Shown: one piece after another, positions 4,685-50,365 of the stretch
Layout of the letters: each line of letters begins with the position of its first letter
How positions within the stretch are numbered: position 1 is the first letter of the stretch
Assembly (NCBI GenBank): GCA_903904885.1
Contig: CAIVED010000021.1
Coordinates: 17,456-81,455 of the forward strand
Length of the DNA: 64,000 nucleotides
DNA from: an uncultured archaeon
GTDB lineage: Archaea > Nanobdellota > Nanobdellia > Woesearchaeales > CAIVOO01
Direction of reading: 5' to 3'
Made by a program: the position numbers and the translations under genes
The notes under the pieces: model-generated
Database searches by the model: none
Told to the model about the DNA's origin: nothing
What the model saw: only the letters and a program-made list of their open reading frames with translations

Positions 4685-5311
4685 TTAAACTTTAGAAACA
4701 CTGAAGGTTATTGTTACATTTCTCTGGCCGGGGTTGGCATCATTGGGTATTACAAGCCTTGCAGAGACATTAAAGCTGTCCGCACTTTGCGGGAAATTAA
4801 GCAGGGCGCAGAGACTAAGCGGGGTTTCTGTTGAGTTTGGCACATTGCCGCTGTCATAGCTTGTTACGAATGTTCCAGAGCAGGCTCCCGCCTTTGTGGT
4901 TATCCCCTTTACCTGGAAAAGAGGGCTTGTCCCCCCTATCAGGCCTTTTGCGTTGTTATCGCTGTTTCCAGAGACATTCACGGATATGTTGACTGTCCCG
5001 TCATTTTCAATTGAGACATACTGCGGCAGCGAAGCGCCGTTCCATGTTCCTCCAAGGACCGCAGCGGCCCCGGTTAAATTGCTGTCCAGGGTGGCATTTA
5101 CAGCCGTTGAATTGACCCTGCCGCTCCCAAAGTCGATGCTTCCGGTTATTTTGACAGATACTTCTTCAGTAAGATTAACGCTTGTGGTGGCTGTTCCTGA
5201 GCTGTCAAGGCCCGTTATTGAGGCAATGCCCCTTTCATGGCTGAAGGATATGGCCAATGCCGCTATGGAAATCATCAGTGCGGTTAAGAGAATTGCTTCT
5301 GTTCTGCCCAT
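4685..5311 (-). CDS. Secreted protein, member of a 4-gene family sharing a ~100-aa C-terminal module
   Basis: N-terminal signal-anchor. The C-terminal module YVSIENDGTVNISVN...GGTSPLFQVKG...NSTETPLSLC...NVSARLVIPNDANPG is homologous to the C-termini of the ORFs at 5346-5966, 16284-17813 and 17869-19452. Confidence 0.6.
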   Translation of the reverse strand: MGRTEAILLTALMISIAALAISFSHERGIASITGLDSSGTATTSVNLTEEVSVKITGSIDFGSGRVNSTAVNATLDSNLTGAAAVLGGTWNGASLPQYVSIENDGTVNISVNVSGNSDNNAKGLIGGTSPLFQVKGITTKAGACSGTFVTSYDSGNVPNSTETPLSLCALLNFPQSADSFNVSARLVIPNDANPGQRNVTITFSVSKV

Positions 5312-5345
5312 AAAATAAAAGAAAAATAAAAGAATATAAAAAGGT

Positions 5346-5966
5346 TTACGTTGCCTGAGAAGCGCTGAATGTTATTGTAGCGTTTCTTCCTCCTGCTGCG
5401 GCATCACTAGGGATGACCACTTCTGCAGAAACATTGAACGTATCTGCGCTATTGGTATATTGCAATTTGTCGCAGATAGGGTATGGTGTTTCTGTCGAGT
5501 TTGGAACAGCAGTGTAAGATGTCTGCAGTGTAACGCATGAGTTTGCCTCTGTAGCAATACCCTTCATCTTGAATGATGGGCTTGTCCCCCCTATCAAACC
5601 GTTTGCATTGTTGTTTGCGTTTGCGCTCAGGTTAACTGAAATGTTAACTGTTCCGTCGTTCTCAACCTTTATGTACTGGGTTATTGGTGTCCATGTTCCG
5701 CCGACAACGGTTCCTGCTTGGCTGTCAAGAGTGGAACTTGTGGAAGTGGCATTGACCCTTCCGTTTCCCCAGTCTATGGAACCTGTAACCAGTATTGAAA
5801 CTTCAGACGTTGCGTTGAAGGATACCGGCCCTGTTCCAGTGCCGCCTTTACCAGTTATGTAGGTGATTCCACCTTTGTTTATGCTTAATATCCCTACAAG
5901 AGATATTACGATTGCAACTCCTACAAGAATTGCCAATGTTTTGTTGCTAACATCACTCATCTTCAT
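5346..5966 (-). CDS. Secreted protein, tandem paralog of the 4685-5311 gene
   Basis: The N-terminus (NKTLAILVGVAIVISLVGILS...ITYITGKGGTG) and the C-terminal module (YIKVENDGTVNISVN...GGTSPSFKMKG...NSTETPYPIC...VVIPSDAAAG) are both shared with the neighbouring gene. Confidence 0.6.
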   Translation of the reverse strand: MKMSDVSNKTLAILVGVAIVISLVGILSINKGGITYITGKGGTGTGPVSFNATSEVSILVTGSIDWGNGRVNATSTSSTLDSQAGTVVGGTWTPITQYIKVENDGTVNISVNLSANANNNANGLIGGTSPSFKMKGIATEANSCVTLQTSYTAVPNSTETPYPICDKLQYTNSADTFNVSAEVVIPSDAAAGGRNATITFSASQAT

Positions 5967-5977
5967 TCCCTCCTTTA

Positions 5978-6208
5978 TTATTGTACTTCAAATGTAACCT
6001 GTCCGCTTTTCTGAACCGGTTCAGCAGGCGCATTTGTGCCAATCCCGAAACTTACGTACGACTTTCCTTCTGTGTTGCCTTCCCCGCCCTGAACAACCAC
6101 TGTTGAAGGGGTGCTCAGCATTTTCCAGGTGGCAACAGCTGAAAGAACAATCGCAATAATAAACAACACTGCCAGTGTTTTTTTAGAAATGTCTCCCATC
6201 TTGTTCAC
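5978..6208 (-). CDS. Small secreted/anchored protein (76 aa), possibly pilin-like
   Basis: The N-terminus DISKKTLAVLFIIAIVLSAVA resembles the N-termini of the downstream paralogs. It is the last gene of a 7-gene minus-strand surface cluster. Confidence 0.4.
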   Translation of the reverse strand: MNKMGDISKKTLAVLFIIAIVLSAVATWKMLSTPSTVVVQGGEGNTEGKSYVSFGIGTNAPAEPVQKSGQVTFEVQ

Positions 6209-6323
6209 CTCAAAGCTTTAAACTTCAAAATGTTTATTTTCGGTCATATATAAATGTTGCTGTTTTATTTTTAATTTGATAGTAATATAAACCTCGCATA
6301 GGCCTTCTAAAAAGGCAGATTTA

Positions 6324-6386
6324 CTTACATTGTAGGTAAAAATAAAAATATTTAAATACTAACAAAAATATCTTACATTGTAAGTA
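6324..6386 (+). promoter_or_regulatory. Promoter with paired 15-bp near-palindromic sites (cttacattgtaRgta x2) bracketing the TATA box aatatttaaatac
   Basis: Direct repeat at 6324-6338 and 6372-6386, 48 bp apart. The TATA lies at 6346-6358. The second repeat overlaps the predicted TSS and the ATG of the small HTH gene. Confidence 0.5.
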
Positions 6387-6580
6387 TGAAAATCGAGTCC
6401 ATCCCCCTTGCAGTTCTTTCAGACAGGTCGCTAAGTGTTCTTGAAGCGATTGTTGAGCATCTTCATGATAAGAAATCAATGTCATTCCATGAAATTGCTG
6501 TAAGCCTCAACAGGGATGACCGCACAATCTGGACATGCTATAGCCGGGCAAGGAAAAAGAGGGGGAAGAATGCGAGGTAA
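6386..6580 (+). CDS. Small winged-HTH DNA-binding protein (64 aa)
   Basis: MSFHEIAVSLNRDDRTIW is a helix-turn-helix-like segment, followed by a basic tail RARKKRGKNAR. The gene overlaps the start of the giant surface-protein gene by 11 nt. Confidence 0.45.
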   Translation: MKIESIPLAVLSDRSLSVLEAIVEHLHDKKSMSFHEIAVSLNRDDRTIWTCYSRARKKRGKNAR

Positions 6581-9500
6581 AAATATCATAATTTGCGCAT
6601 TATTTGCAATTCTGCTAATCCTCTCTTTCAAAATTGCAATGTCTGCATCAATTCCCTCGGACTATCTTGCCTACTGGAAATTTGACAATGCAAACGGCAG
6701 CAATTCCACCTTTGCGCCCGATGAAACTTGGAAATTTAATGGAAGCGTATTTGGCGGGGCTGTCAATGGAAGCGCCGGCAGGGTTGGTGAGTCCTATGTT
6801 TTCAATGCGACAAATGGCTACATTAATGCTACCAATTATAACATAACTGCAAACATATCCGCCTTTGCCTGGATGAACACTAAAATCACAAATGCTGCGC
6901 TGCGATATGTTGTGGGAAAGCAGTCAAGCTCATCCTCCGGCTGGTACATTAGGTTGGAAACATCAAACAAGCCGTCATGCACATTCGTGACCGGAGCGGG
7001 GGGAGCTGCAAACACTTCCGCAGTTTTAGCAACAATAGTCCCAACAGTTAATACATGGTATCATGTCGGATGCATTTTCAACGGCACAAACGCAATGATA
7101 TACATAAACGGCGTGCTTAACAACATAACCTCCTGGGCAGGCCCAAAGAATCTCACACCCAACGGGCTTAACATAGCAATGGGAAAATATGCGCTTAATT
7201 CAAACTACTATTGGAACGGCTCAATTGATGAGGTAATAATTTACAACCGTTCCCTTTCGATAGCAGATGCAGGCGGGATATATGATTCCTACTTCGGGTT
7301 TGCGGTAGCCCTTTCCCAACCTGCAAATGACGCAGTATTTTCACAGTCAAAGAACGTGTCACTCAATTTTTCAGTGAGCGGGGACATTAATTCCTACAAC
7401 TGCTCCCTGTCAGTAAACACTGTTTTTAACCAGACAAATAACCTGGTGCAGAATAATACGATAACCGCTTTCAATCTGAATGTGTCATCGGCGGCAACCT
7501 ATTACTGGAATGTTTCCTGCACCAACAGGAGCATAAACAACTTTTCAGAAACGAGAAATTTCACCTTTGAGAAAGTGGCATACCTAAGCTCAAACAATGC
7601 AATAGGATATACGTCTGTTGAGTCCTGTTTTGATGCGATAAACAACACCAATGATGGTTGTGTTTTGGGTGTTAGTAATTATTCAGAAACATTTTCTTCT
7701 CCTAAGTATTATAATTTCTCTCTGGATAATGGTTTTGTTCTCAGTACTTACAGCCAATCCAACGTTTCAATAGATTTCAGTAATATGAGCGCTGATGTTC
7801 TTAGTAATTTCGCTAAAGTTTCTGATAATCAGAGTTTCAGCAATCTTAATATTAGTGGTGTGTCTGTTGAGGGTTTTGAAGCAGGAAACGCTATCGCGTC
7901 TTTGGGTATTGGCTGGAATAATGTTATAATAAGCAATTTTGACTACTGCATCCATAATGACGGAACAGGTTTTCAGACTGCGATAATAAATAACAGCCAG
8001 TTTTCATGCAATCTTTTAAGCTTAAACACCTACTCTCATGACCAGGTTTATAACACCAGAATTTTAAGGGGCGGTTACATACTGTCCAGCTGGGGCAGCC
8101 CGGTAATTTTTGATAATGTCACTTTTCAAAACATTTCCATAAACAGCGGCGTTGGCGTCACTAACATGAATATTACCAATTCCCTGTTTAATTATACTGT
8201 TCTCGGGCAGGCCGTTGGCGATTATGATGCCGTTTCAGGAAACACTTTTGTATGCCCAGCCAATGCCGATGCAATATCAATAAACAGCAATTCAGTAACA
8301 ATCTCAAACAATACATTCCAAAACTGCGGAAACCTGACATACACGTCCCAATACCTGTCAAGCTACAGCCCCATGACCTACGGAGGAAACAACTTCAACA
8401 CGGCCGTAATTTTTGTTTCCTCAAACTTAGGAACAAACAAGGCTGTTTCAGCGGATAATACAGATGTTTCAACCATAGCAGACGGAACAAACAACTTCCG
8501 CCTATGGCTTGTGAACATTCCAGCAGCAAGCATACCATTTTCAACACTCTATGTTGCTGACCCGCCGGCCATGAGCTGCGCAGCAGTAGCAAGCGCCTAC
8601 GGCGGAACGTGCTATTTCGACGAAGCAGACTATTTCGTAGCAAACGGAACAGCAGATTATATCACAAATCCGGCAAGCTCAGCTGCGATAATGCCCGGGT
8701 ACACATCACCTGCATACCTCAAATACAGCGTCCTCGCAAACTACAACGCCGTTCCCTTAAGAAACTCCGGAGCAAACAACAACATCACAGGCAACACTTT
8801 TGCTAGCAATACTGCCCCATTTTTAATAAACGGCACAGGAACAAACCTGTGGTTAAACAGCTTCCAGGACTTCACGCCGATAAACCTATCCGATTACACA
8901 GCTTGCATTAATAGTGAGGGAAATTTCTATCAGGAAAGCCTAGCCACCCTGGCGGGAGACTGCGGCCAGTCAAATGTAACGGTTCCCAATGAAAATCAGA
9001 AGCAAGGCACCCTGTTCAGCCTAGGATGGAAAAAACAGAGCTCAATATTCCTGATTTTTTATGACATCTTCATTAAAAAGATTGACCAGGCATTTGCGCT
9101 TCTTGGAACAACCAATGACACAAACTATACCCTTAACGTTTCCCAGTATGATGTTTACAACTATACCTTGAAGCTGGTTCCCTATATTAATGGGTCAAGA
9201 GTGAATGGAACAAACGTGTTGAGGAATTTTGAGATAGGCTATAACCATGCGCCAAATATAACCTCAATTTTCCTGAACTCAACATCAATTTATAACCGCA
9301 GCACTGACAATCTAACCGCCGCGTACTCTGTGTCTGACTTTGACACGGACAATGTTTCCATTAATTACAACTGGTACAGGAATGGGGCATCGGAAACCGT
9401 CCTGAACATGCCTTTCACCGCACCGGACGCAAACAACCAAACCTATGATTTTTCAGCTTTCTCAAACCCCGGAACGGCCTACAATGGATCAAGATGGAAT

Positions 9501-11684
9501 GCCACCGCCGGGCATGACGGCTTCGGGGCATTTGATTTTGACGGGGTTAATGGTTCCTATATTTATATTTCAAATCCAGTTAGAACTCTCACGGTTAATA
9601 GTTTTGCCATCTCCTTATGGATTAAACCCCAAGGCTTGCAGTCAAGGAGGTGGATATTTGAATGGGGGGACAGCATGTCTGTAATCCAGCCCTGGGTAGG
9701 CTTATTAAAATACTCCAATACAACAGCCGAATGGTTTGTACTTGGGGGTTATAATAACCTTGGAACCATAAACGTTTCCGACGACTCCTGGTACCATCTT
9801 GTAATGGTTTACACTGGCACTTCAGTATCAGGCATATGGAATTCCTATGTCAACGGTGTTCTTAGCCAGGCCGTAGCTGGAAACAGAGCAAACGGATATG
9901 GAGCAGGTCACATTTATATTGGCTCGGGCCTTAACGGGTCTTTCAATGGGACAATTGATGATTTTCGTGTTTACAATAGAAGCCTTTCAGCAAGTGAAGT
10001 GTTTATGCTCTATAACAATGGGCCAAGCACCCTCCATTCCGAGGCCATAAATGTGGGAGATAATTGGTCTGTTAAGGCCACACCCATCGATTTGCAGGGA
10101 TTGAACGGCAGCGGCGTTTTTTCAAACAACATAACCATAAACCAAAATTACCCCCCATCAATATCCTCCATAACCTTGAATTCGACATCAGGCTCTAATC
10201 TTACAACTGACAATCTCACAGCCACTTCCGCAGGGGTCAGCGACCCCGAGGGGGACGCAGTTACGGTTAATTATAATTGGTATAGGAACGGGGTTTCGGA
10301 TGCAGTTGTTAATCTTCCCTTTGCTGCTCCAGATAGCTCAGGCAAAACCCACGATTTTTCCGGCAATGGCAATGACGGACTTGTTACCAGTGGCAATTTC
10401 AGTTCAACAGGCGGCCATGACGGTTTTGGGGCCTTTGAATTTAACGCGGTCATAACTTCAATGATAAACGTAAGTGTCGACCTTGAATCTTCAGACTATA
10501 ACAGCTCAACTGTTTCAGTATGGTTCAATAAAAAAAGCACAAGAGACCAAATGGTATGGTCCGATGAAAAAGGCCGCTTTGACAAATCACTTGAGCTAGA
10601 TTATTTCAATACAGACAATAGAATATGTTTGTATAATGGTACAAGCAGAATTTGCCAGATAATGAATAACCACGGCTGGCTTAATGCGGTTGCTGTTTTT
10701 TACCCGAATAATACTGCTGCATTGTACGTAAATGGCAGCCTTGTTATGACCATCAACACAAAATATAATGTAACCAATACCCTGGGATATACCATCCTTG
10801 GCAAAGATGTAATACACAACAGCCTGCACTTTAATGGAACCATTGATGATTTCCAGGTCTATAACCGGACACTCTCTGCAAATGAGATAATGCTGCTGTA
10901 CCAAAGCCAGGCAAAGCTACATTCAGACGCGTTGTCTGCAGGCGACAATTGGTCGGTAAAAGCAACGCCGATTGATTCCTATGGCCTGAATGGAAGCGGT
11001 GTTTTTTCAAACAACGTGACCATAAACGGCATCACACTTATAATCCCTTCAAGTGCAGCTATACTAATAAACCGAACGCCATTCTTCAACTGGAGCTATG
11101 GCTCGTCTGCAAGCTTTAACCTCCTGGCGGACAATAATTCGGATTTTTCATCTCCGGAAATAAATATAACCACTTCAGATTCAAACTACACCCCAACACA
11201 GGACCTTAATTTTACTGATTATTTCTGGAAGATAGGTGTTTCGGGAAGTTTTACTGAAACAAGAAACTTTACCATTATCAAGAACATTGCCTGCAAACTG
11301 CTGTTAGATTCAATAAACTTTTCAAATATAAACCTAAATGAAGTAAGGAACACAACAAACAGCGCCAATCCCATAATCGTGGAGAATTCAGGCAACCTTA
11401 AGCTCAACATCTCAATAAATTCGACAAGCCTCTGGCAGTATTATCCCAATCCGACAAACTATTACCAGTACAAAATAGGGGCGAACAAGAGCAACGCATT
11501 TGACAGCGCGCTTAACAGCAGCTGGAATAATTTTTCAAGCCAGACGGTCAATTCCATAGCAGGGCTTAAGTATTTTGATGCAAACAACTCAGCAAGAATA
11601 GATGTGCAGGTGGCTGGCCCTCCTGGTGAAGGTGCGGGAGTAAAAAATTCAACAATAGGTGTGTGGTGCGAGGAAGATGAATAA
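6570..11684 (+). CDS. Giant secreted surface glycoprotein (~1,705 aa) with three LamG/concanavalin-like modules and a right-handed beta-helix region
   Basis: The start is set at Met19 of the tracked ORF, where MRGKNIIICALFAILLILSFKIAMSA forms a signal peptide. Three jelly-roll signatures are present: IDEVIIYNRSLSIADAGGIY, IDDFRVYNRSLSASEVFMLY and IDDFQVYNRTLSANEIMLLY. Pectate-lyase-like repeats are NNVIISNFDYCIHNDGTG and ISINSNSVTISNNTFQNCGN. There is a very high density of N-x-S/T sequons. Confidence 0.75.
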   Translation: MRGKNIIICALFAILLILSFKIAMSASIPSDYLAYWKFDNANGSNSTFAPDETWKFNGSVFGGAVNGSAGRVGESYVFNATNGYINATNYNITANISAFAWMNTKITNAALRYVVGKQSSSSSGWYIRLETSNKPSCTFVTGAGGAANTSAVLATIVPTVNTWYHVGCIFNGTNAMIYINGVLNNITSWAGPKNLTPNGLNIAMGKYALNSNYYWNGSIDEVIIYNRSLSIADAGGIYDSYFGFAVALSQPANDAVFSQSKNVSLNFSVSGDINSYNCSLSVNTVFNQTNNLVQNNTITAFNLNVSSAATYYWNVSCTNRSINNFSETRNFTFEKVAYLSSNNAIGYTSVESCFDAINNTNDGCVLGVSNYSETFSSPKYYNFSLDNGFVLSTYSQSNVSIDFSNMSADVLSNFAKVSDNQSFSNLNISGVSVEGFEAGNAIASLGIGWNNVIISNFDYCIHNDGTGFQTAIINNSQFSCNLLSLNTYSHDQVYNTRILRGGYILSSWGSPVIFDNVTFQNISINSGVGVTNMNITNSLFNYTVLGQAVGDYDAVSGNTFVCPANADAISINSNSVTISNNTFQNCGNLTYTSQYLSSYSPMTYGGNNFNTAVIFVSSNLGTNKAVSADNTDVSTIADGTNNFRLWLVNIPAASIPFSTLYVADPPAMSCAAVASAYGGTCYFDEADYFVANGTADYITNPASSAAIMPGYTSPAYLKYSVLANYNAVPLRNSGANNNITGNTFASNTAPFLINGTGTNLWLNSFQDFTPINLSDYTACINSEGNFYQESLATLAGDCGQSNVTVPNENQKQGTLFSLGWKKQSSIFLIFYDIFIKKIDQAFALLGTTNDTNYTLNVSQYDVYNYTLKLVPYINGSRVNGTNVLRNFEIGYNHAPNITSIFLNSTSIYNRSTDNLTAAYSVSDFDTDNVSINYNWYRNGASETVLNMPFTAPDANNQTYDFSAFSNPGTAYNGSRWNATAGHDGFGAFDFDGVNGSYIYISNPVRTLTVNSFAISLWIKPQGLQSRRWIFEWGDSMSVIQPWVGLLKYSNTTAEWFVLGGYNNLGTINVSDDSWYHLVMVYTGTSVSGIWNSYVNGVLSQAVAGNRANGYGAGHIYIGSGLNGSFNGTIDDFRVYNRSLSASEVFMLYNNGPSTLHSEAINVGDNWSVKATPIDLQGLNGSGVFSNNITINQNYPPSISSITLNSTSGSNLTTDNLTATSAGVSDPEGDAVTVNYNWYRNGVSDAVVNLPFAAPDSSGKTHDFSGNGNDGLVTSGNFSSTGGHDGFGAFEFNAVITSMINVSVDLESSDYNSSTVSVWFNKKSTRDQMVWSDEKGRFDKSLELDYFNTDNRICLYNGTSRICQIMNNHGWLNAVAVFYPNNTAALYVNGSLVMTINTKYNVTNTLGYTILGKDVIHNSLHFNGTIDDFQVYNRTLSANEIMLLYQSQAKLHSDALSAGDNWSVKATPIDSYGLNGSGVFSNNVTINGITLIIPSSAAILINRTPFFNWSYGSSASFNLLADNNSDFSSPEINITTSDSNYTPTQDLNFTDYFWKIGVSGSFTETRNFTIIKNIACKLLLDSINFSNINLNEVRNTTNSANPIIVENSGNLKLNISINSTSLWQYYPNPTNYYQYKIGANKSNAFDSALNSSWNNFSSQTVNSIAGLKYFDANNSARIDVQVAGPPGEGAGVKNSTIGVWCEEDE

Positions 11685-12459
11685 ACTGATAATATACTTA
11701 TTGGCAATGATTTTGCTGTTGTCAAATGCGTTTGCAATAGGCATTGGGGGGAAAAATGAGCAGATAACTGCCGAGGGGCAGAAATCAATAGACCTGTTCA
11801 TCACAAACAGCGGCCATGAGGACGCAGTTGTTGATGTGGGGGTTTTAGGGGAAAATGAGGGCGTTTCAGTAAGCCCGGCCAGAATAACAATCAACTCAAC
11901 AGAAGAGATTAAAAAATTTACCGTGTTCCTCGATTTCAGCAGAATCAAAAACTATCCTGTGAAAATCTATGCATCAGAATCCCGGGGGAATGGCGGCCAG
12001 GTTTCAGCAGTGGCAAATGTTGTCTACAGTCTGCAGATAAGCCATTCAAGCAATAGCGTTTCTGAAGATTTCCCGAAAGAAGAGCCAAAAGCCGAGAGCC
12101 CTGCCTTGAATGAAACTGCCAAAGAAATTGGCACTGTGCAGGAAAAATTAGCAATCTCCGAAGAGCCGCCGAAAACAGCAGCTGCTGCAAAGGAGTTTTC
12201 AGGGGCAGCAGCTGCCAAAGAGCAAGCAATTCAGCAATCTGGAGCAAAAACAGGCGATTTGAAAAAAATACTGCTTTACAGCCTGGCTATTGTCATATTC
12301 ATAATTGTTGCAGACATGGTTTACATAAAGAAAAAGCACCCGCTGGAGGAATACATTATTAAATCCAGGAAAATCGGCAAGAATGATGAGGAGATAAAAT
12401 CAAAATTAAGCGAGGCAGGATGGAGCGATTTGATAATTGATTCGCATCTCAAAAAATGA
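11677..12459 (+). CDS. Secreted single-pass membrane protein with conserved cytoplasmic tail motif
   Basis: Signal peptide MNKLIIYLLAMILLLSNAFA, with the start adjusted from the track value of 11659. The C-terminal TM is ILLYSLAIVIFIIVADMV. The tail EEYIIKSRKIGKNDEEIKSKLSEAGWSDLIIDSHLKK matches the tail of the ORF at 58446-59267. Confidence 0.6.
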   Translation: MNKLIIYLLAMILLLSNAFAIGIGGKNEQITAEGQKSIDLFITNSGHEDAVVDVGVLGENEGVSVSPARITINSTEEIKKFTVFLDFSRIKNYPVKIYASESRGNGGQVSAVANVVYSLQISHSSNSVSEDFPKEEPKAESPALNETAKEIGTVQEKLAISEEPPKTAAAAKEFSGAAAAKEQAIQQSGAKTGDLKKILLYSLAIVIFIIVADMVYIKKKHPLEEYIIKSRKIGKNDEEIKSKLSEAGWSDLIIDSHLKK

Positions 12460-13043: not shown

Positions 13044-13065
13044 GTTTCTATTAACAAAATTTCTG

Positions 13066-13250
13066 CCAACAAAAAACCGTTTGCTGGTTCTTGCATTAAT
13101 CTTTATGTTTGTTTTGCTTCTTCCGCTCAACTGCCATGCAAGAAGTGAATTTATTGCTGTTGGCAGGAAAATTTTTTCCGCAGTTCTGGCAATCAGGCAA
13201 AACTTGAAATCAAGGAACGGGGTTAAGAACTGCGCCAGAAAGATTATCGT
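13066..13250. repeat. Intergenic repeat family copy A (~185 bp) carrying conserved mini-ORF MFVLLLPLNCHAR...
   Basis: Shares ccgtttgctggttcttgcattaatct, ctgccatgcaagaa and ctggcaatc blocks with copies at 24748-24995 and 59271-59455. Confidence 0.6.
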
Positions 13251-13274
13251 TGATGAAAGCGCAAAAAAAGAGTC

Positions 13275-13631
13275 TTAAATCTCCTTAATCCCGTCCTTTG
13301 TCAATGCAGTCGGCTTGAACTTTATGTTGAGTTTCTGCAGTGCTGAAAGAATTGCCATGTGCTCCTTGCCGTCTCCTGAAACCAAATTAAGAGCCACTTC
13401 CTTGGTTTTTATGTTATCGCTAATTCCCTTTTTAATATCTTCAACAAGTTCTCCTACAGGTTTTCTATTGTCAATTACTACCAAAATCGCATTTTTTTCG
13501 TTTGTGAATTTCTCTTTTCCGAAATCATTTGTAATCAGAACTATGTTATCCCATGTGCCGTCTGCTATCAATCTTGCGACGTGGCCCCAGGTTCCCTTTC
13601 CTGTGCTTAAACATGCCAGTAATTCAACCAT
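13275..13631 (-). CDS. Hypothetical protein (118 aa)
   Basis: Intact ORF with no motif I can assign. The promoter has tatatataa about 20 nt upstream of the ATG, plus a GC box. Confidence 0.45.
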   Translation of the reverse strand: MVELLACLSTGKGTWGHVARLIADGTWDNIVLITNDFGKEKFTNEKNAILVVIDNRKPVGELVEDIKKGISDNIKTKEVALNLVSGDGKEHMAILSALQKLNIKFKPTALTKDGIKEI

Positions 13632-13917
13632 GCGGTTTGGATTAACAGCTTATATATAAAGTTAATGCGTCGCGTTCGGGACGTATTAATCTTTTATAGA
13701 TGCAAAATACTGCAATTTTATGAGATTTGTTAAACTAAGCGGCACAATATATGACTATTCCGAGTACAGGCTTAACATTTCTTCTCTTGTAAAAGCCATA
13801 AACGAGGAGATTGAAAACTCAGTAACCAGATTAGGATTCGTAAAGCAGAGGGAAAATATGTTTTACAACAAAAAATTCGACCTGGCACTCAAAATAGAAA
13901 TAAAGAACAAGTCAAAA

Positions 13918-14646
13918 CTAAAATTCGTCTAGGGCCTTCTGGTTTTTTTTGTGCCTCTCAAGGTGTTTCGGAGGTTCAATCTTCCTGTATTCAAATCCCC
14001 AGTCTTCAAGCATTTTCAGTGCATTTGCGCTGATTGCCGGGCAGGCGAGAATCCCGCGAACATTTTTTATTCCCTTCAGCGCCTTTATTTTTTCAACGTA
14101 TCTTCTCAATTGCGTTACCGCATTAAGGTCCCCGTTGAATCTCTTGCATTCCACAACAACCAGATTATTGTCCTTGTCATGGCCGAATACGTCAATGAAT
14201 CCGTATTTTGTGTGCTCCTCCCTGCTCAATGGCCGGAAATCATTGCCTATCAGCCCGGGGTTTTTCATTATCATGTCAGACATGTGCTTTTCTGTTCCCT
14301 GAAGTTCAATTTCCCTGTCATCCTCAAATTTCTGGCAGTGGACAAAATGTATCTTGCTGAATTCTATTTCCATGAACTCTTTCATCGCGGAATTTCTTGC
14401 CTTGAGCAGGATATTTTTTCCGTTTTCTGAAATCTCATGGACAGTTCCCTGCTTCATGTAATTCACAGGCGCGGTTCCCTTAGGCTGGTGCACAATAAGG
14501 CTTTTGTCTGATTTGATTATTACAATCCTGTCGCCTGAAGGAAGAAAGCTTTCAGCCCTGCCTGAGTAGGTTACTTCGCAGTCTGCCCCGATTATTATCA
14601 CATCCCCGGCATCAAGCGCATTTTTTATTTTCCCTGCGTAATCCAT
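13918..14646 (-). CDS. nucS: Endonuclease NucS (EndoMS), mismatch-specific RecB-like nuclease
   Basis: N-terminal MDYAGKIKNALDAGDVIIIGADCEVTYSGRAES and C-terminal GFIDVFGHDKDNNLVVVECKRFNGDLNAVTQLRRY, which is a PD-(D/E)XK D...ExK motif. The size is typical of NucS. The start is adjusted to the internal ATG because the tracked start is GTG. Confidence 0.75.
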   Translation of the reverse strand: MDYAGKIKNALDAGDVIIIGADCEVTYSGRAESFLPSGDRIVIIKSDKSLIVHQPKGTAPVNYMKQGTVHEISENGKNILLKARNSAMKEFMEIEFSKIHFVHCQKFEDDREIELQGTEKHMSDMIMKNPGLIGNDFRPLSREEHTKYGFIDVFGHDKDNNLVVVECKRFNGDLNAVTQLRRYVEKIKALKGIKNVRGILACPAISANALKMLEDWGFEYRKIEPPKHLERHKKNQKALDEF

Positions 14647-14666
14647 GGAAAAACAAAGCACTGCTT

Positions 14667-15482
14667 TTATTTAAACCTTGCACTTCCTCTGAAGCACTCG
14701 TCATAGAAATCGCATTTTCCTGTTCTCCATTTGCAAAGCCCTGATTCCTGTTTTGGGTAGTCATCAATCGCGTTAGACTCTGTTTTCTGGTGTATTCCCT
14801 CTATCTCTTTTATTGCATTTTCAATAAGCTTCTCATCCATTTCAATTATCTGCTCCTTGTCCTTGAGGAACCAGATGCTGAGCTTGTTTGGCATTTTGCC
14901 GTGCTTTTCGCTGTAAAGAAGGGCATAAATCGCAAGCTGCAATTCATAATTGTCTGAAATCTCAAAGCTCCCGCTTGTCTTGTAGTCAAGAACTTTTATT
15001 TCGCCGTCAACATGCTCAACAACATCAATGAAGCCCTTTACCATGTGCTTCTTGCTTTCGTATTCCGCTTCTATCTCAACAGGCCTGAATTTTTTGAATG
15101 CCTCGTTAAAGCTGAGTCCTGTGCTGTCAATCCTGTCAAAGAAATACTGGAGCCAGTTTGCGAGCATCTCTGCTATTTCCTGCTTTGCGCCGATTATTTC
15201 CTTTTCTGTTGCCCTCAGGTCCTCAAACTTCTCAAGGCTCTTCAGCCAGAATGCGTTGAAAAGGTTTTTCATGTAATAGGAAAGCTCCTTTTTGTAATTT
15301 TCCTCCTTGAAATGCTTTATGTCAATGTCAAAGAATTTCTCAAGCACCGAATGGACAATCTTGCCCTTTACCAGGTGGATGTTTTCGCCGGTGGGAAGCC
15401 TGAGGATGTACTGGTAGAAATATTTTCTCGGGCACTGCCGGTAGGTGTTTATGGATGAGGGGGACTGGACTCTTTTCGCCAT
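14667..15482 (-). CDS. Cas4-like PD-(D/E)XK nuclease with N- and C-terminal Cys cluster (putative Fe-S)
   Basis: N-terminal SPSSINTYRQCPRKYFYQYI. The core is IDVVEHVDGEIKVLDYKTS...ELQLAIYALL. The C-terminus is CKWRTGKCDFYDEC. This is the same family as the ORF at 49157-50320. No cas genes are nearby. Confidence 0.65.
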   Translation of the reverse strand: MAKRVQSPSSINTYRQCPRKYFYQYILRLPTGENIHLVKGKIVHSVLEKFFDIDIKHFKEENYKKELSYYMKNLFNAFWLKSLEKFEDLRATEKEIIGAKQEIAEMLANWLQYFFDRIDSTGLSFNEAFKKFRPVEIEAEYESKKHMVKGFIDVVEHVDGEIKVLDYKTSGSFEISDNYELQLAIYALLYSEKHGKMPNKLSIWFLKDKEQIIEMDEKLIENAIKEIEGIHQKTESNAIDDYPKQESGLCKWRTGKCDFYDECFRGSARFK

Positions 15483-15683
15483 GAGGGCTTTCTGGGAATT
15501 TTAATTGTTTAAATAGTTTTGTTACCTGTTGAAGTAGCAAAAACAAAAGATTCGCGGAATAAGCTTCCTAACTGAAATTATTTTCATTATATGATATAGC
15601 GCATATTTATTTTTTATCCTGCAAATGTTTCTCCTCATTTGTATATAAAAAATTTTATAAACAAGCGGCAAATCCCTTTCTGA

Positions 15684-16235
15684 ATGTTTGTTTCGTTTGG
15701 GGAAGTTGTTGATTTTGCTGTAATGACCTTCATAGTAGGCTACATTTTCTCAGATTTTTTCATCTTCAAAAGGGTCAAGCCGGTTTTTGACCTGAAAGCA
15801 ATATTGTTTGCAGCAGCCATAACTGCCCCGGCAATCGTGCTGCATGAGCTTGCACACAAGTTTGCTGCAATTTCCCTCGGGCTTACTGCGACTTTCCATG
15901 CGGCATATTTCTGGCTTATGATAGGGATCATAATGAAAGCCCTGAGCCCAGGATTCATATTCTTCGTGCCTGCCTTTGTTTCGATACAAGGCTTGAGCAC
16001 ACCCCTAACTCAAACAATAGTTTCAGCTGCCGGGCCGCTGACCAACCTTGCTTTGTTCTTGATAGCTTGGGCGGTCCTGGCGCTGAAATTTACAAACAAC
16101 AGCATGGCAGTTTTCTTTTTGAAGCTTACAAAAAGGATAAACGGATTTCTTTTCCTGTTCAACATGATACCGATTCCGGGGTTTGACGGGTTCCAGTTCT
16201 TCAGCGGGGCCTATCGGCTGATTTTCAAAGTCTAG
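15684..16235 (+). CDS. Minimal M50 family (site-2 protease-like) membrane metalloprotease
   Basis: HExxH lies in a TM helix (LHELAHKFAA). The downstream NMIPIPGFDG matches the M50 N-x-x-P-x-x-x-LDG motif. The protein is polytopic and hydrophobic. Confidence 0.6.
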   Translation: MFVSFGEVVDFAVMTFIVGYIFSDFFIFKRVKPVFDLKAILFAAAITAPAIVLHELAHKFAAISLGLTATFHAAYFWLMIGIIMKALSPGFIFFVPAFVSIQGLSTPLTQTIVSAAGPLTNLALFLIAWAVLALKFTNNSMAVFFLKLTKRINGFLFLFNMIPIPGFDGFQFFSGAYRLIFKV

Positions 16236-16283
16236 AAAAGTTTATATACGCCCCGCTCAATATATGCCTCTAAAGGTGATTTT

Positions 16284-17813
16284 TTGAAGAACCAAACAAT
16301 TGCGCTGCTTATCGGGATTTTTATTGTTGTTTCTCTGGCCAGTTTTTTGATTGTCCCTAAAAATATTGTTTACATCACCGGCAAGGCAAGCAGCGGAAGC
16401 TCAAACACTGCATTTAACCTTACCGAAGAGGTTTCTGTTCTTGTTACTAATGCAGTTGATTTTGGGGAAGGCAGGGTTGATGCAAATGCCAGTTATGCGA
16501 TTCTGGACAGCGAAGGCGGAGGCGGAAGCGCTATTGGATGGGCTAACATAACTGGCATGATAAATTCTCCCGCTACGCATGAGTTTCTCGCAACTGTTTA
16601 TGACCCTGCACTTGATGTTTTTATTGCCTATGGGGGGGACATTTATGATCCTGACACTGATAGCTATTCTCCGGATACTGAAACATGGATGTTTAATTAT
16701 TCCAATAAGGAGTGGACAAATCTGACTGCAACCGCAGGGGCTCCAAAAGCAATCTATAGTTTTGGAATGGTCTATGACAATTCTGCGAGAGGAATTATTA
16801 TGTGTGGGGGAGAGTACGATTTTTTTCAAGAAAACCAGTCCAATGAAACCTGGAAATTCAATTCAAGCATGAGGTGGGAAAATCTGAGCCCCTCAAACAC
16901 CCCTCCTTTCATAAGTGACTGGGACCCCGCGATGGCATTTGACAGCAAAAGAAATGTCACAGTGATGTTTGGAGGCTATGAAAATTGGGGTGTGGCATAT
17001 ATGAATGAAACCTGGGAGTATAATTCAAGCTCAAACAGCTGGACAAATAAAACAAAAGCCATAACCCCTCCAGCAAGGACTGATGCTTTTATGGCTTTTG
17101 ACAGCGAGAGAAATGTTACTGTTCTTATTGGGGGGGCAGGATCTTACTCATCAACTAGTCAGGACGTTTTTGAATATACTGGAACCGACTGGATAAATGT
17201 TACTGCATCTACAGGCTATGCCCCTGCCAATCCCCTTGGGCTATCCTATGATGCCTATCGTAAAAATATTGTTTTTGTTGCAGACTATGACACCTGGACC
17301 TATAATGGTACCGGATTTGTAAATGTTTCAGCTCCGTGGATTGGTGCTTTAGCATGGCAGCTAATGTCCTATGATTCAAGTGCGCAGAAAACATTATTTG
17401 TTTACCCTGATAACACCTGGGCGTACCCATCTTCAATCAGCGGCGGAGGAGGTGGCGGTTGTATCAATGGCACCTGGTCTTTTTCGCCGAGTTTTATTTA
17501 TGTTGAGAATGACGGCACTGTTGATATAAATGTTAACTACACTGCGAATAAGAATGCGGGGCAGTTTATTGGGGGCACCTCTCCAAGTTTCAAAATTAAA
17601 GGGGTTGTTGATGAGTCTGGTGCCTGTGCGGATTTGAATACCACGTATGCTGAGGTTTCCAATTCTACCGAGACTCCGCTTACTCTCTGCCCGGTTTTGA
17701 AGTACCAGAATGATGCGGACAGAATCAAGGTTCCTGCAAGGCTGGTTGTTCCCAGTGATGTTGCATCCGGGGTTCATAATTCAACAGTAACTTTCAGCGC
17801 AACTTTGGTTTAA
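16284..17813 (+). CDS. Secreted surface protein with Kelch-like beta-propeller core and conserved family C-terminal module (TTG start)
   Basis: An aaggtgat RBS sits 5 nt before the TTG. N-terminus KNQTIALLIGIFIVVSLASFLIV. Repeated NETW(K/E)(F/Y)N.S..W(T/E)N blades are followed by GG. There is a poly-Gly linker. The C-terminal module FIYVENDGTVDINVN...PARLVVPSDVASG is shared with three other genes. Confidence 0.7.
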   Translation: MKNQTIALLIGIFIVVSLASFLIVPKNIVYITGKASSGSSNTAFNLTEEVSVLVTNAVDFGEGRVDANASYAILDSEGGGGSAIGWANITGMINSPATHEFLATVYDPALDVFIAYGGDIYDPDTDSYSPDTETWMFNYSNKEWTNLTATAGAPKAIYSFGMVYDNSARGIIMCGGEYDFFQENQSNETWKFNSSMRWENLSPSNTPPFISDWDPAMAFDSKRNVTVMFGGYENWGVAYMNETWEYNSSSNSWTNKTKAITPPARTDAFMAFDSERNVTVLIGGAGSYSSTSQDVFEYTGTDWINVTASTGYAPANPLGLSYDAYRKNIVFVADYDTWTYNGTGFVNVSAPWIGALAWQLMSYDSSAQKTLFVYPDNTWAYPSSISGGGGGGCINGTWSFSPSFIYVENDGTVDINVNYTANKNAGQFIGGTSPSFKIKGVVDESGACADLNTTYAEVSNSTETPLTLCPVLKYQNDADRIKVPARLVVPSDVASGVHNSTVTFSATLV

Positions 17814-17868
17814 AATCACACTAACATTTATATACCGCCATTTCAATATATTCTTCTTAAAAGGTGAT

Positions 17869-19452
17869 TTGTTGAAGAACAATACAATTGCGCTGCTGGT
17901 GGGAATTCTTATTATAATCTCTTTGGCCAGTTTTTTAATTGTACCAAGGAGCATTGTTTATTTGACCGGCAGGGCAAGCAGCGGAAGCTCGAGTACTGCG
18001 TTTAATCTTACCGGCGAGGTTTCTGTTCTTGTTACGAATGCGGTGGATTTCGGGGAAGGCAGGGTTGATGCCAATGCCAGTTACGCAATACTTGACAGTT
18101 CTTTGGGAACTGGCGGCTCTTCAATCTTCGGCTGGTTCAATGTTACAGGGATTACCGGTGATAAGCCGCTTCTGGGCATCGACCAAGTTGCGGCCTACGA
18201 TTCAGCAAGGGATGTTTCTATTTTTTACGGCGGCTATGTGGGCGAAGGGTATAGTTTAAATGAAACCTGGCAGTTTAACTATTCCAGTAAGCATTGGACG
18301 AATTTGACAGACCTGTCAAGTGTTCCGCAACAGACAGAAACTTCAATGGTTTATGATTCTTCAATAGGCGCGATAATACTTTTCGGCGGATTCCCGGGAA
18401 ATGTAGGCGATTGCGGAAGTGGTTGCGGTTCAAATGAGACCTGGAAATTCAATTCAAGCCAAAAATGGGAAAAATTGAATCCTTCAGGTGAAAGTCCTCT
18501 ACCAATGCAATATCCTTCAATGGTTTTTGACAGCAAAAGAAATGTTACTGTTCTTTTTGGAGGGAGTATTATTCCTGGTGGCGCCTATTCAAATGAAACC
18601 TGGGAGTATGATGCGAGTTCAAATACCTGGACAAATAAGACCGGTCCTACAGCTCCTCCAACAAGGCTCATGTACTCCATGGCGTTTGATAGCGCAAGGA
18701 ATGTTACTGTTATTTTCGGAGGTAACACAGGAGCAGCAATTATTAACGATCTTTGGGAGTATAATGGCACTGACTGGGTTAATATAAGCACGGTGCATTC
18801 TCCATTACCACGATTCAATGCAGGAATGACCTATGATTCTGTAAGGAAAAGGGTTGTTCTTGCAGGAGGACAGGATGAAAATGCATCGACTTTAACTGAT
18901 ACCTGGGAGTATGATGGGTCTGATTGGACAGATACGGGCTATACTTCGTATGGTCCGATTGATACTAATACTTATTCTCGTGTTATTTTCGATACCCAAA
19001 TTGGCAGAACATTGCTTTTCTATGCTGAGGCCATTAGCGGTTTTGAGGAGGTCCAGGAGTATGGCAACATAACCGCTGGCGGAGGAGGAGGTGGCGGCTG
19101 TACCAACGGCACCTGGTCTTTTTCGCCGAGTTTTATCTACGTTGAGAATGACGGCACTGTTGACATAAATGTTAATTATACTGCGAATAAGAATGCAGGG
19201 CAGTTTATTGGGGGCACCTCTCCAAGTTTCAAAATTAAAGGGGTTGTGGATGAATCTGGTGCTTGCGCTGATTTGAATACCACGTATGCTGATGTTCCCA
19301 ATTCTACTGAGACACCTCTTACTTTATGCCCGCTTTTGAAGTACCAGAATGATGCGGACAGAATCAAGGTTCCTGCAAGGCTGGTTGTTCCCAGTGATGT
19401 TGCCTCTGGAATGCATAACTCAACCATAACCCTGACCGCAACCCAGGTTTGA
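17869..19452 (+). CDS. Tandem paralog of the 16284-17813 gene (Kelch-like surface protein; TTG start)
   Basis: The first ~220 nt and last ~390 nt are about 90-95% identical at nucleotide level to the upstream gene, while the central propeller is divergent. The RBS/TTG arrangement is the same. Confidence 0.7.
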   Translation: MLKNNTIALLVGILIIISLASFLIVPRSIVYLTGRASSGSSSTAFNLTGEVSVLVTNAVDFGEGRVDANASYAILDSSLGTGGSSIFGWFNVTGITGDKPLLGIDQVAAYDSARDVSIFYGGYVGEGYSLNETWQFNYSSKHWTNLTDLSSVPQQTETSMVYDSSIGAIILFGGFPGNVGDCGSGCGSNETWKFNSSQKWEKLNPSGESPLPMQYPSMVFDSKRNVTVLFGGSIIPGGAYSNETWEYDASSNTWTNKTGPTAPPTRLMYSMAFDSARNVTVIFGGNTGAAIINDLWEYNGTDWVNISTVHSPLPRFNAGMTYDSVRKRVVLAGGQDENASTLTDTWEYDGSDWTDTGYTSYGPIDTNTYSRVIFDTQIGRTLLFYAEAISGFEEVQEYGNITAGGGGGGGCTNGTWSFSPSFIYVENDGTVDINVNYTANKNAGQFIGGTSPSFKIKGVVDESGACADLNTTYADVPNSTETPLTLCPLLKYQNDADRIKVPARLVVPSDVASGMHNSTITLTATQV

Positions 19453-33752: not shown

Positions 33753-33808
33753 AGCATTAGATTTATAAATCAAAGCCGGTTTAGAAGACAATGGGGGGTG
33801 TTAGATAC

Positions 33809-34363: not shown

Positions 34364-34377
34364 ATATTTTTTTTATT

Positions 34378-34968: not shown

Positions 34969-35053
34969 TTTAAAGGAGTTTTTGTTTAAAAATCTTTCTC
35001 AATTGAGATAAATTTTTAAAGTCAATATGGCTGAATAAACCAAAACAGGGGGT

Positions 35054-42481: not shown

Positions 42482-42604
42482 TAGCTGTGATATATGTATT
42501 CTGATATATAAATGTTTTGATTATCATAATGGGATAATATGTTAATTGTAATTTACATATGTTTATAAACATCCTCATATTTATCCGCTTAAAAAAAAGA
42601 TTTT

Positions 42605-43296: not shown

Positions 43297-43302
43297 AGTA
43301 AA

Positions 43303-43857: not shown

Positions 43858-43864
43858 ATAAAAT

Positions 43865-46758: not shown

Positions 46759-46760
46759 TT

Positions 46761-50320: not shown

Positions 50321-50365
50321 TCTGGGAGTATTGATTGTTTGTTATTTATAAATCTTGCAGCAGGA

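What the first reader, a model, noticed from the sequence alone, without database searches (positions are those of the whole stretch)
4685..19452. A shared ~100-aa C-terminal module defines a four-member secreted protein family split between two loci
The C-terminal segment (Y/F)I.(V/I)ENDGTV(N/D)I(S/N)VN...N(A/N)...(L/F)IGGTSP.F(K/Q)(I/M/V)KG...(A/S)C...NSTETP(L/Y).(L/I)C...(S/N)AD...(V/P)(S/A)A.(L/V)V(I/V)P.D.A.G appears in the ORFs at 4685-5311, 5346-5966, 16284-17813 and 17869-19452. The N-terminal signal-anchor xTIALLxGIxIxxSLA...(I/V)(T/V)YITGKxxxG is shared as well, and also by the 76-aa ORF at 5978-6208. This could be a sorting or anchoring module, an S-layer or pilus-tip domain, or a receptor-binding fold. 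It is paired with a FlaI/FlaJ-like assembly system at the other end of the window.
Basis: partly seen in the sequence, partly recalled or inferred. Interest (0 to 1): 0.55.

Follow-up and report, generated by a model that had tools for sequence, protein, structure and literature searches.

The report
Predicted strand-exchange pilus family in DPANN archaea
The shared "C-terminal module" is the back half of a roughly 170-residue beta-sandwich whose predicted fold most resembles TasA, cannula and chaperone-usher pilins, and it sits in a conserved, undescribed gene cassette of Woese-, Pace- and Nanoarchaeota that probably builds glycosylated surface fibres displaying Kelch or lectin adhesion domains.

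Summary
All four ORFs exist and are clearly homologous. The homology covers the whole ~205-aa small proteins, not only the last 100 aa. The two long proteins are the same domain with a ~310-aa Kelch beta-propeller inserted in a loop between poly-Gly linkers. A fifth copy of the C-terminal module ends the 1722-aa LamG protein (6516-11684). The 76-aa and 225-aa ORFs carry only the N-terminal part.

The domain has no Pfam, NCBIfam or PDB sequence match. It is nevertheless a large family, with 2136 clusters at 50% identity. Named hits are Woese-, Pace- and Nanoarchaeota MAGs.

My best reading (confidence ~0.5) is a Sec-dependent, strand-donation pilus of DPANN archaea with plug-in adhesin domains. 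I found no link to the FlaI/FlaJ genes 54 kb away. Polymerisation itself is inferred, not shown.

The parts
5346..5966 (-). A-type pilin-like subunit (206 aa; public gene calls start at 5960, giving 204 aa). It has an N-terminal hydrophobic helix (aa 8-28), a low-confidence linker carrying the invariant I-T-G (aa 37-39), and then a beta-sandwich (aa 58-204).
   Evidence: AF2 pLDDT 87; HMM E 2e-65.
4685..5311 (-). B-type pilin-like subunit (208 aa). It is 57% identical to the A-type and has a distinct N-terminus (M..(T/I)E..(L/F)L). An A/B tandem recurs in the closest related loci (L001, L002, L003).
   Evidence: (E 4e-54).
5978..6208 (-). g1: a small protein (76 aa) with the same hydrophobic helix as the A-type, followed by two short strands (..SYVSFGIG.. 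and ..GQVTFEVQ). It has no beta-sandwich.
   Evidence: profile 1-56, E 1.4e-5; hhalign 96.7% against the pilin N-terminus.
3419..4645 (-). g4: a signal peptide, three Ig-like beta-sandwich domains (aa 23-131, 138-237, 241-344) and a C-terminal TM anchor (aa 376-402). It is the gene that most regularly follows the pilin gene.
2968..3438 (-). g5: an N-terminal TM anchor plus one beta-sandwich. It is homologous to g4 domain 1 and weakly similar to the pilin profile.
   Evidence: hhalign g5-g4 96.3%; pilin-g5 80%.
2259..2936 (-). g6: a TM helix, then 'ITGSATGEGHVSFRI' (the family N-terminal half), then an unrelated repeat-containing C-terminal part.
   Evidence: (profile 5-103, E 7e-8).
703..2262 (-). 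g7: a signal peptide, fn3-type repeats and a C-terminal TM anchor. It is the last gene of the operon in the closest loci. In relative P0065, a g7-like N-terminal segment (about 60 aa, compared by eye) is followed by other sequence and ends in the pilin-like domain.
   Evidence: (fn3).
6516..11684 (+). Divergently transcribed 1722-aa LamG adhesin-like protein. Its last ~105 aa (about nt 11349-11660) are a divergent copy of the C-terminal module. It has a hydrophobic N-terminal stretch that looks like a signal peptide, and no other membrane anchor was noted.
   Evidence: Laminin_G_3, E 2e-47; E 1.7e-6; the same module ends the 821-aa counterpart in L001 and L002.
11659..12459 (+). p266: a signal peptide, one beta-sandwich weakly similar to g4 domain 1, and a C-terminal TM anchor. 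It follows the LamG protein. A pairing of a large module-bearing protein with a g4 paralogue recurs in other loci.
   Evidence: E 1e-3, weak.
16284..17813 (+). K1 (509 aa): family N-half (aa 1-84, nt 16284-16535), Kelch beta-propeller insert flanked by poly-Gly (aa 85-394, nt 16536-17465), and family C-half (aa 395-509, nt 17466-17810).
   Evidence: two HMM segments: 5-97 and 87-203.
17869..19452 (+). K2 (527 aa; the likely true start is 17872): N-half nt 17869-18129, Kelch insert nt 18130-19104, C-half nt 19105-19449. It is a tandem duplicate of K1, including the upstream promoter/SD-like sequence.

Best explanation
The family members are subunits of a Sec-exported, N-glycosylated surface fibre of DPANN archaea. 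I propose that the fibre polymerises by donor-strand exchange, as TasA fibres, archaeal bundling pili, threads, cannulae, Tafi and chaperone-usher pili do.

**Proposed mechanism**
1. The N-terminal hydrophobic helix takes the protein through Sec.
2. The leader is cut at or near the invariant hydrophobic-T-G-x-A-T motif. This leaves a short Gly/Ser/Thr-rich N-terminus followed by the first strand (G.VS.N.T).
3. That strand is donated to the beta-sandwich of a neighbouring subunit.

**Proposed roles**
- The short A and B proteins form the shaft.
- K1 and K2 are shaft-compatible subunits that display a Kelch propeller from a loop.
- Large proteins that end in the module, such as the 1722-aa LamG protein, attach through it as tip or side adhesins.
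- g1 (a membrane helix plus a copy of the first strand) is a membrane-embedded strand donor that anchors or nucleates the fibre.
- g4 and g5 (membrane-anchored Ig-like proteins) act as assembly or anchoring factors.

**Shown:** homology, domain architecture, predicted fold, synteny and taxonomic range.

**Inferred:** export, the cleavage site, strand exchange, polymerisation and all individual roles.
For: **Fold**
- The AF2 model has pLDDT 87.
- The Foldseek top hits are FimF, CsuA/B, PapE, TLP-1a and CanX, with probability up to 0.99.

**N-terminus**
- The segment carrying the invariant Gly (159 of 159 sequences) has pLDDT below 50 in the monomer model.
- The first-strand region has pLDDT of only about 60, while the core is above 95.
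- TLP-1 and AbpA show comparable behaviour in monomer predictions (PMC11494351, PMC9245690).

**Architectures**
- Some relatives have an ordinary Sec signal peptide, then a passenger (beta-helix, LamG or other), then a C-terminal copy of the domain without the TM/ITG leader. This is the layout of chaperone-usher tip adhesins.
- The window's LamG giant and its L001/L002 counterpart end in the module.

**g1:** it is a TM helix plus a copy of strand A.

**Synteny and machinery**
- A short pilin-like gene is followed by g4 in about 24 of 33 fetched loci. g5 follows g4 in about 19 of these, and g1 lies next to the pilin in about 16.
- No type IV machinery is nearby.

**Location:** sequon density is 4-5 times that of the cytoplasmic proteins.

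**Precedent:** Tafi loci have a tip protein and TM-anchored jelly-roll anchor proteins (PMC12337348).
Against: - There is no sequence-profile link to TasA. hhalign against a Bacillus TasA alignment gave 3% probability. No PF12389 hit appeared even at E up to 10.
- Polymerisation could not be tested.
- The hydrophobic stretch is about 20 aa, and AF2 models residues 8-28 as one helix. It could be a permanent anchor rather than a cleaved signal.
- In sequence, strand A is joined to strand B by only 2-4 residues. This could favour an intramolecular hairpin.
- No dedicated signal peptidase or TapA-like protein was recognised. The g4 fold matches are non-specific.
Confidence: 0.5

Rival explanations
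1. The proteins are permanently membrane-anchored surface scaffolds that do not form fibres. The N-terminal helix is a signal anchor. The beta-sandwich is a stalk or lattice (S-layer-like) domain that holds Kelch or LamG binding domains at the cell surface. g4, g5, g7 and p266 are further members of the same membrane-bound surface complex.
For: - The hydrophobic stretch is about 20 aa and is modelled as one helix (aa 8-28).
- Nearly every other protein of the cassette is itself membrane-anchored.
- The fold scores do not exclude a generic beta-sandwich.
- No polymerisation evidence was obtainable.
Against: - The best structural neighbours are fibre subunits, not S-layer or stalk domains.
- The module also ends large proteins in which no membrane anchor was noted, and these need some means of attachment.
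- g1, a helix plus a lone first strand, has no obvious role in this reading.
- The invariant TG motif lies 0-14 residues after the helix, where a cleavage site would be expected.
Confidence: 0.25
2. The ~100-aa C-terminal segment is a sorting or attachment signal, functionally like the beta-sandwich C-terminal domain of bacterial T9SS cargo. The accessory proteins recognise it and fix cargo to the envelope. The small proteins are decoys or adaptors.
For: - In every architecture inspected here, the domain is at the extreme C-terminus. Passengers are always N-terminal or inserted.
- It ends the giant LamG protein.
- It is always accompanied by g4 and g5 type membrane proteins.
Against: - The C-terminal segment is not autonomous. 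In the AF2 model it forms one sandwich with the N-terminal strands.
- Relatives of the second architecture keep the whole domain from strand A on.
- Most of the 150 listed members are about 200 aa, so they consist of the domain alone and carry no cargo.
Confidence: 0.1
3. They are archaeal type IV pilin-like proteins. Their N-terminal helix would form the filament core, and the FlaI/FlaJ-like system at 59740-63902 would assemble them.
For: - The layout is an N-terminal hydrophobic helix followed by a beta-sandwich.
- A T2SSE ATPase (PF00437, E 8e-13) and an adjacent 763-aa protein with several hydrophobic stretches are in the same window.
Against: - No class III signal is apparent: there is no [KR][GA] cleavage site before the helix.
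- The helix is separated from the sandwich by a low-confidence Gly-rich linker.
- The domain also occurs without the helix.
- The ATPase is 54 kb away, and no FlaI or FlaJ homologue lies in 339 kb around 33 related loci.
- No archaeal type IV pilin or archaellin appears among the listed fold matches.
Confidence: 0.05

Closest known systems
TasA superfamily strand-donation filaments: B. subtilis TasA, Pyrobaculum AbpA bundling pili, Sulfolobus threads, Pyrodictium/Hyperthermus CanX/CanA/Hyper2 cannulae
   Same: - The subunits are about 150-230 aa, secreted and beta-rich.
- Export appears Sec-type, and no ATPase is encoded nearby.
- A conserved Gly lies in the N-terminal segment, as in cannula donor strands (PMC12518558).
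- A ~410-aa protein with three beta-domains is encoded directly after the pilin gene, as AbpB is in Pyrobaculum (PMC9245690).
   Different: - No sequence-profile similarity: hhalign 3%, and no PF12389 hit.
- The hydrophobic leader carries an invariant hydrophobic-TG-x-AT motif.
- Kelch or LamG domains are inserted in a loop.
- The accessory set (g1, g4, g5) is its own.
- No signal peptidase gene was found in the cassette.
- The hosts are DPANN lineages, not covered in the papers read here.
TLP-1a/b fibrils (Tsinghua Lotus Pond, CryoSeek; PDB 9ikj/9ikk)
   Same: - It is a strand-exchange fibre made of a single beta-rich subunit.
- Its donor strand is also predicted as disordered in AF2 monomers (PMC11494351).
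   Different: - The closest sequence relatives of TLP-1 are bacterial (Flavobacteriales).
- Identity to the window protein is 13%.
- TLP-1 has an ordinary 22-aa signal peptide.
- No inserted domains are reported for it.
Tafi (Tat-fimbriae) of haloarchaea
   Same: - It is an archaeal strand-donation pilus.
- Its locus also encodes a tip protein and membrane-anchor proteins built from one TM helix plus a jelly-roll domain (TafF-like). That is the layout of g5 here (PMC12337348).
   Different: - Tafi subunits use the Tat pathway and a dedicated signal peptidase (TafD).
- The window proteins have no twin-arginine motif.
- No peptidase gene was found in the cassette.
Bacterial chaperone-usher pili (FimA/F/G/H, PapE, CsuA/B, Caf1)
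   Same: - These are the top Foldseek hits (FimF, CsuA/B, PapE).
- The logic is the same: short polymerising subunits, plus large adhesins whose C-terminal pilin-type domain plugs them into the fibre.
   Different: - There is no outer membrane and no usher.
- No Pfam PapD match was found.
- Adhesin domains can be inserted inside the pilin fold instead of preceding it.

Membership tests
TasA superfamily (strand-donation pilins) | TasA-like jelly-roll / Ig-like beta-sandwich fold | tested here: met
   [not shown]
TasA superfamily (strand-donation pilins) | Sequence or profile similarity to PF12389 (Peptidase_M73 / TasA) or to TasA alignments | tested here: not met
   None of 28 members hit PF12389 at E up to 10. 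hhalign of A3 against a 36-sequence Bacillus TasA alignment gave 3% probability. The PDB profile search found nothing relevant. Caveat: the TasA alignment was Bacillus-only and used no secondary-structure term.
TasA superfamily (strand-donation pilins) | Cleaved signal peptide that exposes an N-terminal donor strand | tested here: inconclusive
   A hydrophobic helix is followed after 0-14 residues by an invariant TG motif and then the first strand. No signal-peptide predictor or proteomic data were available.
TasA superfamily (strand-donation pilins) | Polymerisation by inter-subunit strand insertion | not testable with these tools
TasA superfamily (strand-donation pilins) | Neighbouring TapA/AbpB-like protein or dedicated signal peptidase | tested here: inconclusive
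   [not shown]
Chaperone-usher pili | PapD-type chaperone and outer-membrane usher encoded with the pilins | tested here: not met
   [not shown]
Archaeal type IV pilins | Class III signal peptide, with the helix continuous with the globular domain | tested here: not met
   By inspection, no [KR][GA] site precedes the helix. AF2 places a linker with pLDDT below 50 (aa 30-42) between helix and sandwich.
Archaeal type IV pilins | Co-located PilB/FlaI ATPase and PilC/FlaJ platform | tested here: not met
   The ATPase is 54 kb away in the window. There are no homologues in 339 kb around 33 related loci.
Kelch beta-propeller (the insert only) | Match to Kelch repeat models above the curated thresholds | tested here: met
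   PF24681 scores 65.6 and 105.3 bits (cut-off 50). Kelch_3 and Kelch_4 are above threshold.

The most novel reading that the evidence does not exclude
This is a fourth, DPANN-specific class of archaeal strand-donation pili.
- It has its own three-protein, membrane-anchored assembly and anchoring set: g1 as a strand-only anchor, plus the g4 and g5 Ig-like factors.
- It has a 'plug-in' design, in which Kelch, LamG or beta-helix adhesin domains are inserted into, or fused before, the pilin fold.
- It has a previously unrecognised N-terminal sorting signal: a long hydrophobic helix followed by an invariant hydrophobic-T-G-x-A-T. The signal also occurs on unrelated secreted proteins of these organisms and would be processed by a dedicated enzyme.
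- Such fibres would be prime candidates for the host-attachment apparatus of these episymbiotic archaea.
Probability: 0.25. Interest if true: 0.8.

Novelty: new variant of a known kind. Interest (0 to 1): 0.62.

Why it matters
DPANN archaea (here Woese-, Pace- and Nanoarchaeota) are thought to depend on physical contact with host cells. Their attachment structures are largely unknown, and most of their surface proteins are unannotated.

This work defines a large family with no Pfam entry (more than 2,100 clusters at 50% identity). It comes with a conserved gene cassette and a concrete, testable assembly model that links it to the recently recognised strand-donation pili of archaea (ABP, threads, cannulae, Tafi).

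If the model is right, it would matter in three ways.
- It extends that assembly principle to DPANN lineages, which the papers read here do not cover.
- It shows a way of displaying adhesin domains from inside a pilin fold, which I did not find described in the papers read here.
- It gives named targets (A/B, K1/K2, g1, g4, g5) for cryo-ET and proteomics of DPANN-host co-cultures.

Tried and rejected
1. Pfam, NCBIfam and PDB sequence searches of the domain, as single proteins and as profiles, gave no meaningful hit.
2. Profile-profile comparison with a Bacillus TasA alignment gave 3% probability. Only the signal and first-strand region aligned.
3. I built a linked A-B pseudo-dimer with a paired alignment to test strand exchange by AF2.
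5. I tested linkage to FlaI/FlaJ and to the adjacent M50 peptidase. There are no FlaI or FlaJ homologues near related loci. M50 recurs only in L001, as ordinary synteny.
6. The search for related loci with the broad alignments A3 and A2 failed because no stretch was conserved enough. A narrower alignment (A7) worked, but it only reaches close relatives.
7. Literature searches for DPANN plus TasA, or Woesearchaeales plus pilin/adhesin/Kelch, found nothing relevant in the held library.
8. I considered a sortase-like reading of the T-G motif. I did not adopt it, because there is no LPxTG context and the topology is the opposite one.
Full report
**1. The observation**

The ORFs at 4685-5311(-), 5346-5966(-), 16284-17813(+), 17869-19452(+) and 5978-6208(-) all exist. 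An alignment of the five (A1) shows the quoted C-terminal motif in all four larger proteins. It also shows that the similarity starts at the N-terminus.

- The first ~85 residues of the short proteins align with the first ~85 of the long ones at 42-48% identity. The last ~115 residues align at 50-54%.
- Between these two blocks, the long proteins carry about 310-325 extra residues. Pfam recognises these as a Kelch beta-propeller (PF24681, E 5e-18 and 3.7e-30).
- The insert is bracketed by poly-Gly runs (…LDSE-GGGGS… and …GGGGGGC.NGTW…).

The family unit is therefore the whole ~205-aa protein. K1 and K2 are that protein with a propeller inserted in a loop.

A family HMM searched against the six-frame translation of the window recovers the following:

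| ORF | Profile positions matched | E-value |
|---|---|---|
| The four family ORFs | whole profile (two segments in K1 and K2) | 1e-50 to 2e-65 |
| C-terminus of the 1722-aa LamG protein (6516-11684) | 93-199 | 1.7e-6 |
| 225-aa ORF 2259-2936 | 5-103 | 7e-8 |
| 76-aa ORF | 1-56 | 1.4e-5 |

It is, however, under-described.

**2. What the domain is**

No Pfam, NCBIfam or PDB sequence match exists for the domain. This holds for single proteins and for profiles.

- A word-indexed search found only 41 relatives. The few that carry names are 'Candidatus Woesearchaeota'.
- An exhaustive profile search of 1.84 billion cluster representatives found 2136 at E<=1e-3 and 1639 at E<=1e-10. Most are about 200 aa. 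This is a large, unannotated family.
- An AlphaFold2 model of the A-type protein, built with a 28-sequence alignment, has mean pLDDT 87. It shows a helix at residues 8-28, a low-confidence linker (30-42) and a well-defined beta-sandwich at 58-204.

Structure comparison points in one direction.

- Foldseek independently ranks FimF, CsuA/B, PapE, TLP-1a and CanX first.
- TLP-1 is an environmental fibril that assembles by donor-strand exchange. AF2 also predicted its donor strand as disordered in the monomer (PMC11494351).

The scores are moderate, and a profile-profile comparison with a Bacillus TasA alignment is negative (3% probability). The link to the TasA superfamily therefore rests on the predicted fold only.

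**3. Sequence anatomy**

Across 159 short members the N-terminus has a fixed plan:
- a short n-region;
- a hydrophobic stretch of about 20 residues;
- then, 0-14 residues later (mode 7), the motif [ILFVM]-[TS]-G-x-[AGV]-[TS], with the Gly invariant in 159 of 159 sequences;
- a few Gly/Ser/Thr residues;
- a first strand (G.V[SN].[NT].T), then 'INFT' and 'I.FG.G.V'.

The sandwich has an invariant Asn-x-Gly (ENDG) and a conserved Cys pair.

The invariant TG segment falls in the part of the monomer model with pLDDT below 50. The first-strand region reaches only about 60, against more than 95 for the core. Strong conservation without a confident monomer structure is what one expects of a segment that works between molecules or is a processing site.

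The same helix plus TG signal is present on proteins outside the family. Examples are g6, the 273-aa protein at 58446-59267 ('PTGYAT') and the N-terminus of P0161. It may therefore be a general leader or processing signal of these organisms. A cut at or just after the Gly would fit the -3/-1 rule of type I signal peptidases (my knowledge, not tested here). It would leave the first strand near the mature N-terminus, which is where donor strands sit in TasA-like pilins.

N-glycosylation sequons are 3.9-4.5 per 100 aa in the family and 5.6 in the LamG giant. Cytoplasmic proteins of the window have 0-0.9.

**4. Architectures**

Long relatives fall into two classes.
1. Leader, TG motif and first strands, then an inserted Kelch or LamG domain, then the C-half. 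K1 and K2 belong here.
2. An ordinary short signal peptide ending in an AxA-type site, then a passenger (right-handed beta-helix, LamG or other), then a complete copy of the domain from the first strand on. This class has no hydrophobic leader and no TG motif. One such relative, P0065, begins with a ~60-aa segment resembling the N-terminus of g7.

In every architecture inspected here, the domain is the extreme C-terminus. The second class has the layout of chaperone-usher tip adhesins, with a passenger followed by a C-terminal pilin-type domain.

The window's LamG giant ends in a divergent copy of the module. So does the 821-aa protein at the equivalent divergent position in L001 and L002.

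**5. Genomic context**

The two short genes lie in a seven-gene operon on the minus strand (6208 to 703): g1 (76 aa), A, B, g4 (408 aa), g5 (156 aa), g6 (225 aa), g7 (519 aa). This operon is conserved gene for gene in related contigs.

Loci whose pilin is only 35-41% identical still keep g1, the pilin, g4 and g5.

A scan of GTDB representative genomes returned 28 loci in Woese-, Pace- and Nanoarchaeota MAGs, several per genome. HMMs for each operon protein gave these results across all 33 fetched loci:
- A short pilin-like gene is followed by g4 (380-470 aa) in about 24 of the 33.
- g5 (135-170 aa) follows g4 in about 19 of these.
- g1 lies next to the pilin in about 16.
- A second unit, a large module-bearing protein followed by a g4 paralogue, often lies upstream.
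- Five loci (L009-L013) hold only long members (513-755 aa), presumably insert-type, with no cassette gene nearby. The window's K1/K2 locus is like this.

The accessory proteins look as follows.
- The sandwich of g5 is homologous to g4 domain 1 (hhalign 96%). It is weakly similar to the pilin profile (80%).
- g1 is the pilin's hydrophobic helix plus a copy of its first strand and one more strand. It has nothing else.

No FlaI or FlaJ homologue occurs within the 339 kb of these loci. The window's T2SSE ATPase (61986-63902) is 54 kb from the operon.

**6. Mechanism proposed**

Putting these results together, I favour a Sec-dependent strand-donation fibre.
- A and B would be the shaft subunits.
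- K1 and K2 would be subunits that expose a Kelch propeller.
- Large adhesins would join through their C-terminal module.
- g1 would be a membrane-embedded strand donor that anchors or nucleates the fibre.
- g4 and g5 would be membrane-anchored assembly or anchoring factors.

Tafi loci offer a precedent for tip proteins and for anchor proteins made of a TM helix plus a jelly-roll (PMC12337348). Pyrobaculum encodes a 410-aa protein with three beta-domains directly after its pilin gene (PMC9245690).

Homology, architecture, predicted fold, synteny and distribution are shown. Export, the cleavage site, strand exchange and all assigned roles are inferred.

**7. Rivals**

- **Permanently anchored scaffold or lattice (0.25).** This fits the hydrophobic helix and the many membrane-anchored partners. 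It explains g1 and the large module-bearing adhesins less well.
- **C-terminal sorting domain (0.1).** This conflicts with the single-fold model and with most listed members being the domain alone.
- **Type IV pilin assembled by FlaI/FlaJ (0.05).** This fails on signal type, linker, architecture and synteny.

**8. Novelty and verdict**

In the held literature I found no description of this family, or of TasA-like pili in DPANN archaea. The cannula paper's survey is built on HMMER searches with known pilins (PMC12518558). The negative Pfam scan and the negative hhalign against Bacillus TasA suggest such searches would not detect this family.

I classify it as a new variant of a known kind: a strand-donation, TasA-like pilus with a new leader motif, loop-inserted adhesin domains and its own accessory cassette. 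Interest is 0.62. The main uncertainty is whether the proteins polymerise at all.

Noticed in passing
window 16221-19452: K1 and K2 are tandem duplicates that include their upstream TATA-like and GGTGAT sequences. The pilin-scaffold parts are 83% (N-half) and 93% (C-half) identical in protein, while the Kelch insert is only 46% identical. This suggests that the scaffold is homogenised or constrained while the binding domain diverges. K2 most likely starts at TTG 17872.
   Followed up: partly
window 2259-2936, 58446-59267; relative P0161: The N-terminal signal (a long hydrophobic helix followed by hydrophobic-T-G-x-A-T) also occurs on proteins that lack the pilin domain ('EDITGSAT', 'MPTGYAT', 'RFTGNAI'). 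It may be a general processing or sorting signal of these archaea.
   Followed up: partly
window 11659-12459 and 58446-59267: Two otherwise different surface proteins share a ~40-aa cytoplasmic tail after their C-terminal TM helix (PL.EY...R..G..DE.IK..L...GW....ID..L.KK).
   Followed up: no
window 42000-50400: GC drops to 0.32-0.35, against about 0.43 elsewhere. The low-GC stretch covers a type I restriction-modification system (HsdS 43865-45325, HsdM 45322-46758, HsdR 46761-49085) and a Cas4-like PD-(D/E)XK nuclease (49157-50320). It is probably an acquired island.
   Followed up: no
window 33791-35539 and 42877-43296: Four small proteins have lipobox-like N-termini (…IVGC, …IAGC, …LMGC, …LAGC). 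These are candidate archaeal lipoproteins.
   Followed up: no
window 15684-16235: A 183-aa M50-family (site-2 protease-like) membrane peptidase lies 48 bp upstream of K1 on the same strand. It recurs near the operon only in L001, as ordinary synteny, so a functional link is not supported.
   Followed up: yes
loci L007, L010, L016, L017, L027, L030: Several GTDB-representative MAGs that carry the cassette are titled 'uncultured Methanosarcinales archaeon'. All other carriers are Woese-, Pace- or Nanoarchaeota, so these labels look doubtful.
   Followed up: no
locus L004 6627-7583: A Peptidase_S49 (SppA-type signal-peptide peptidase) gene sits directly upstream of the g1-pilin-g4-g5 cassette in one distant locus. 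It was not seen in the other annotated loci.
   Followed up: no
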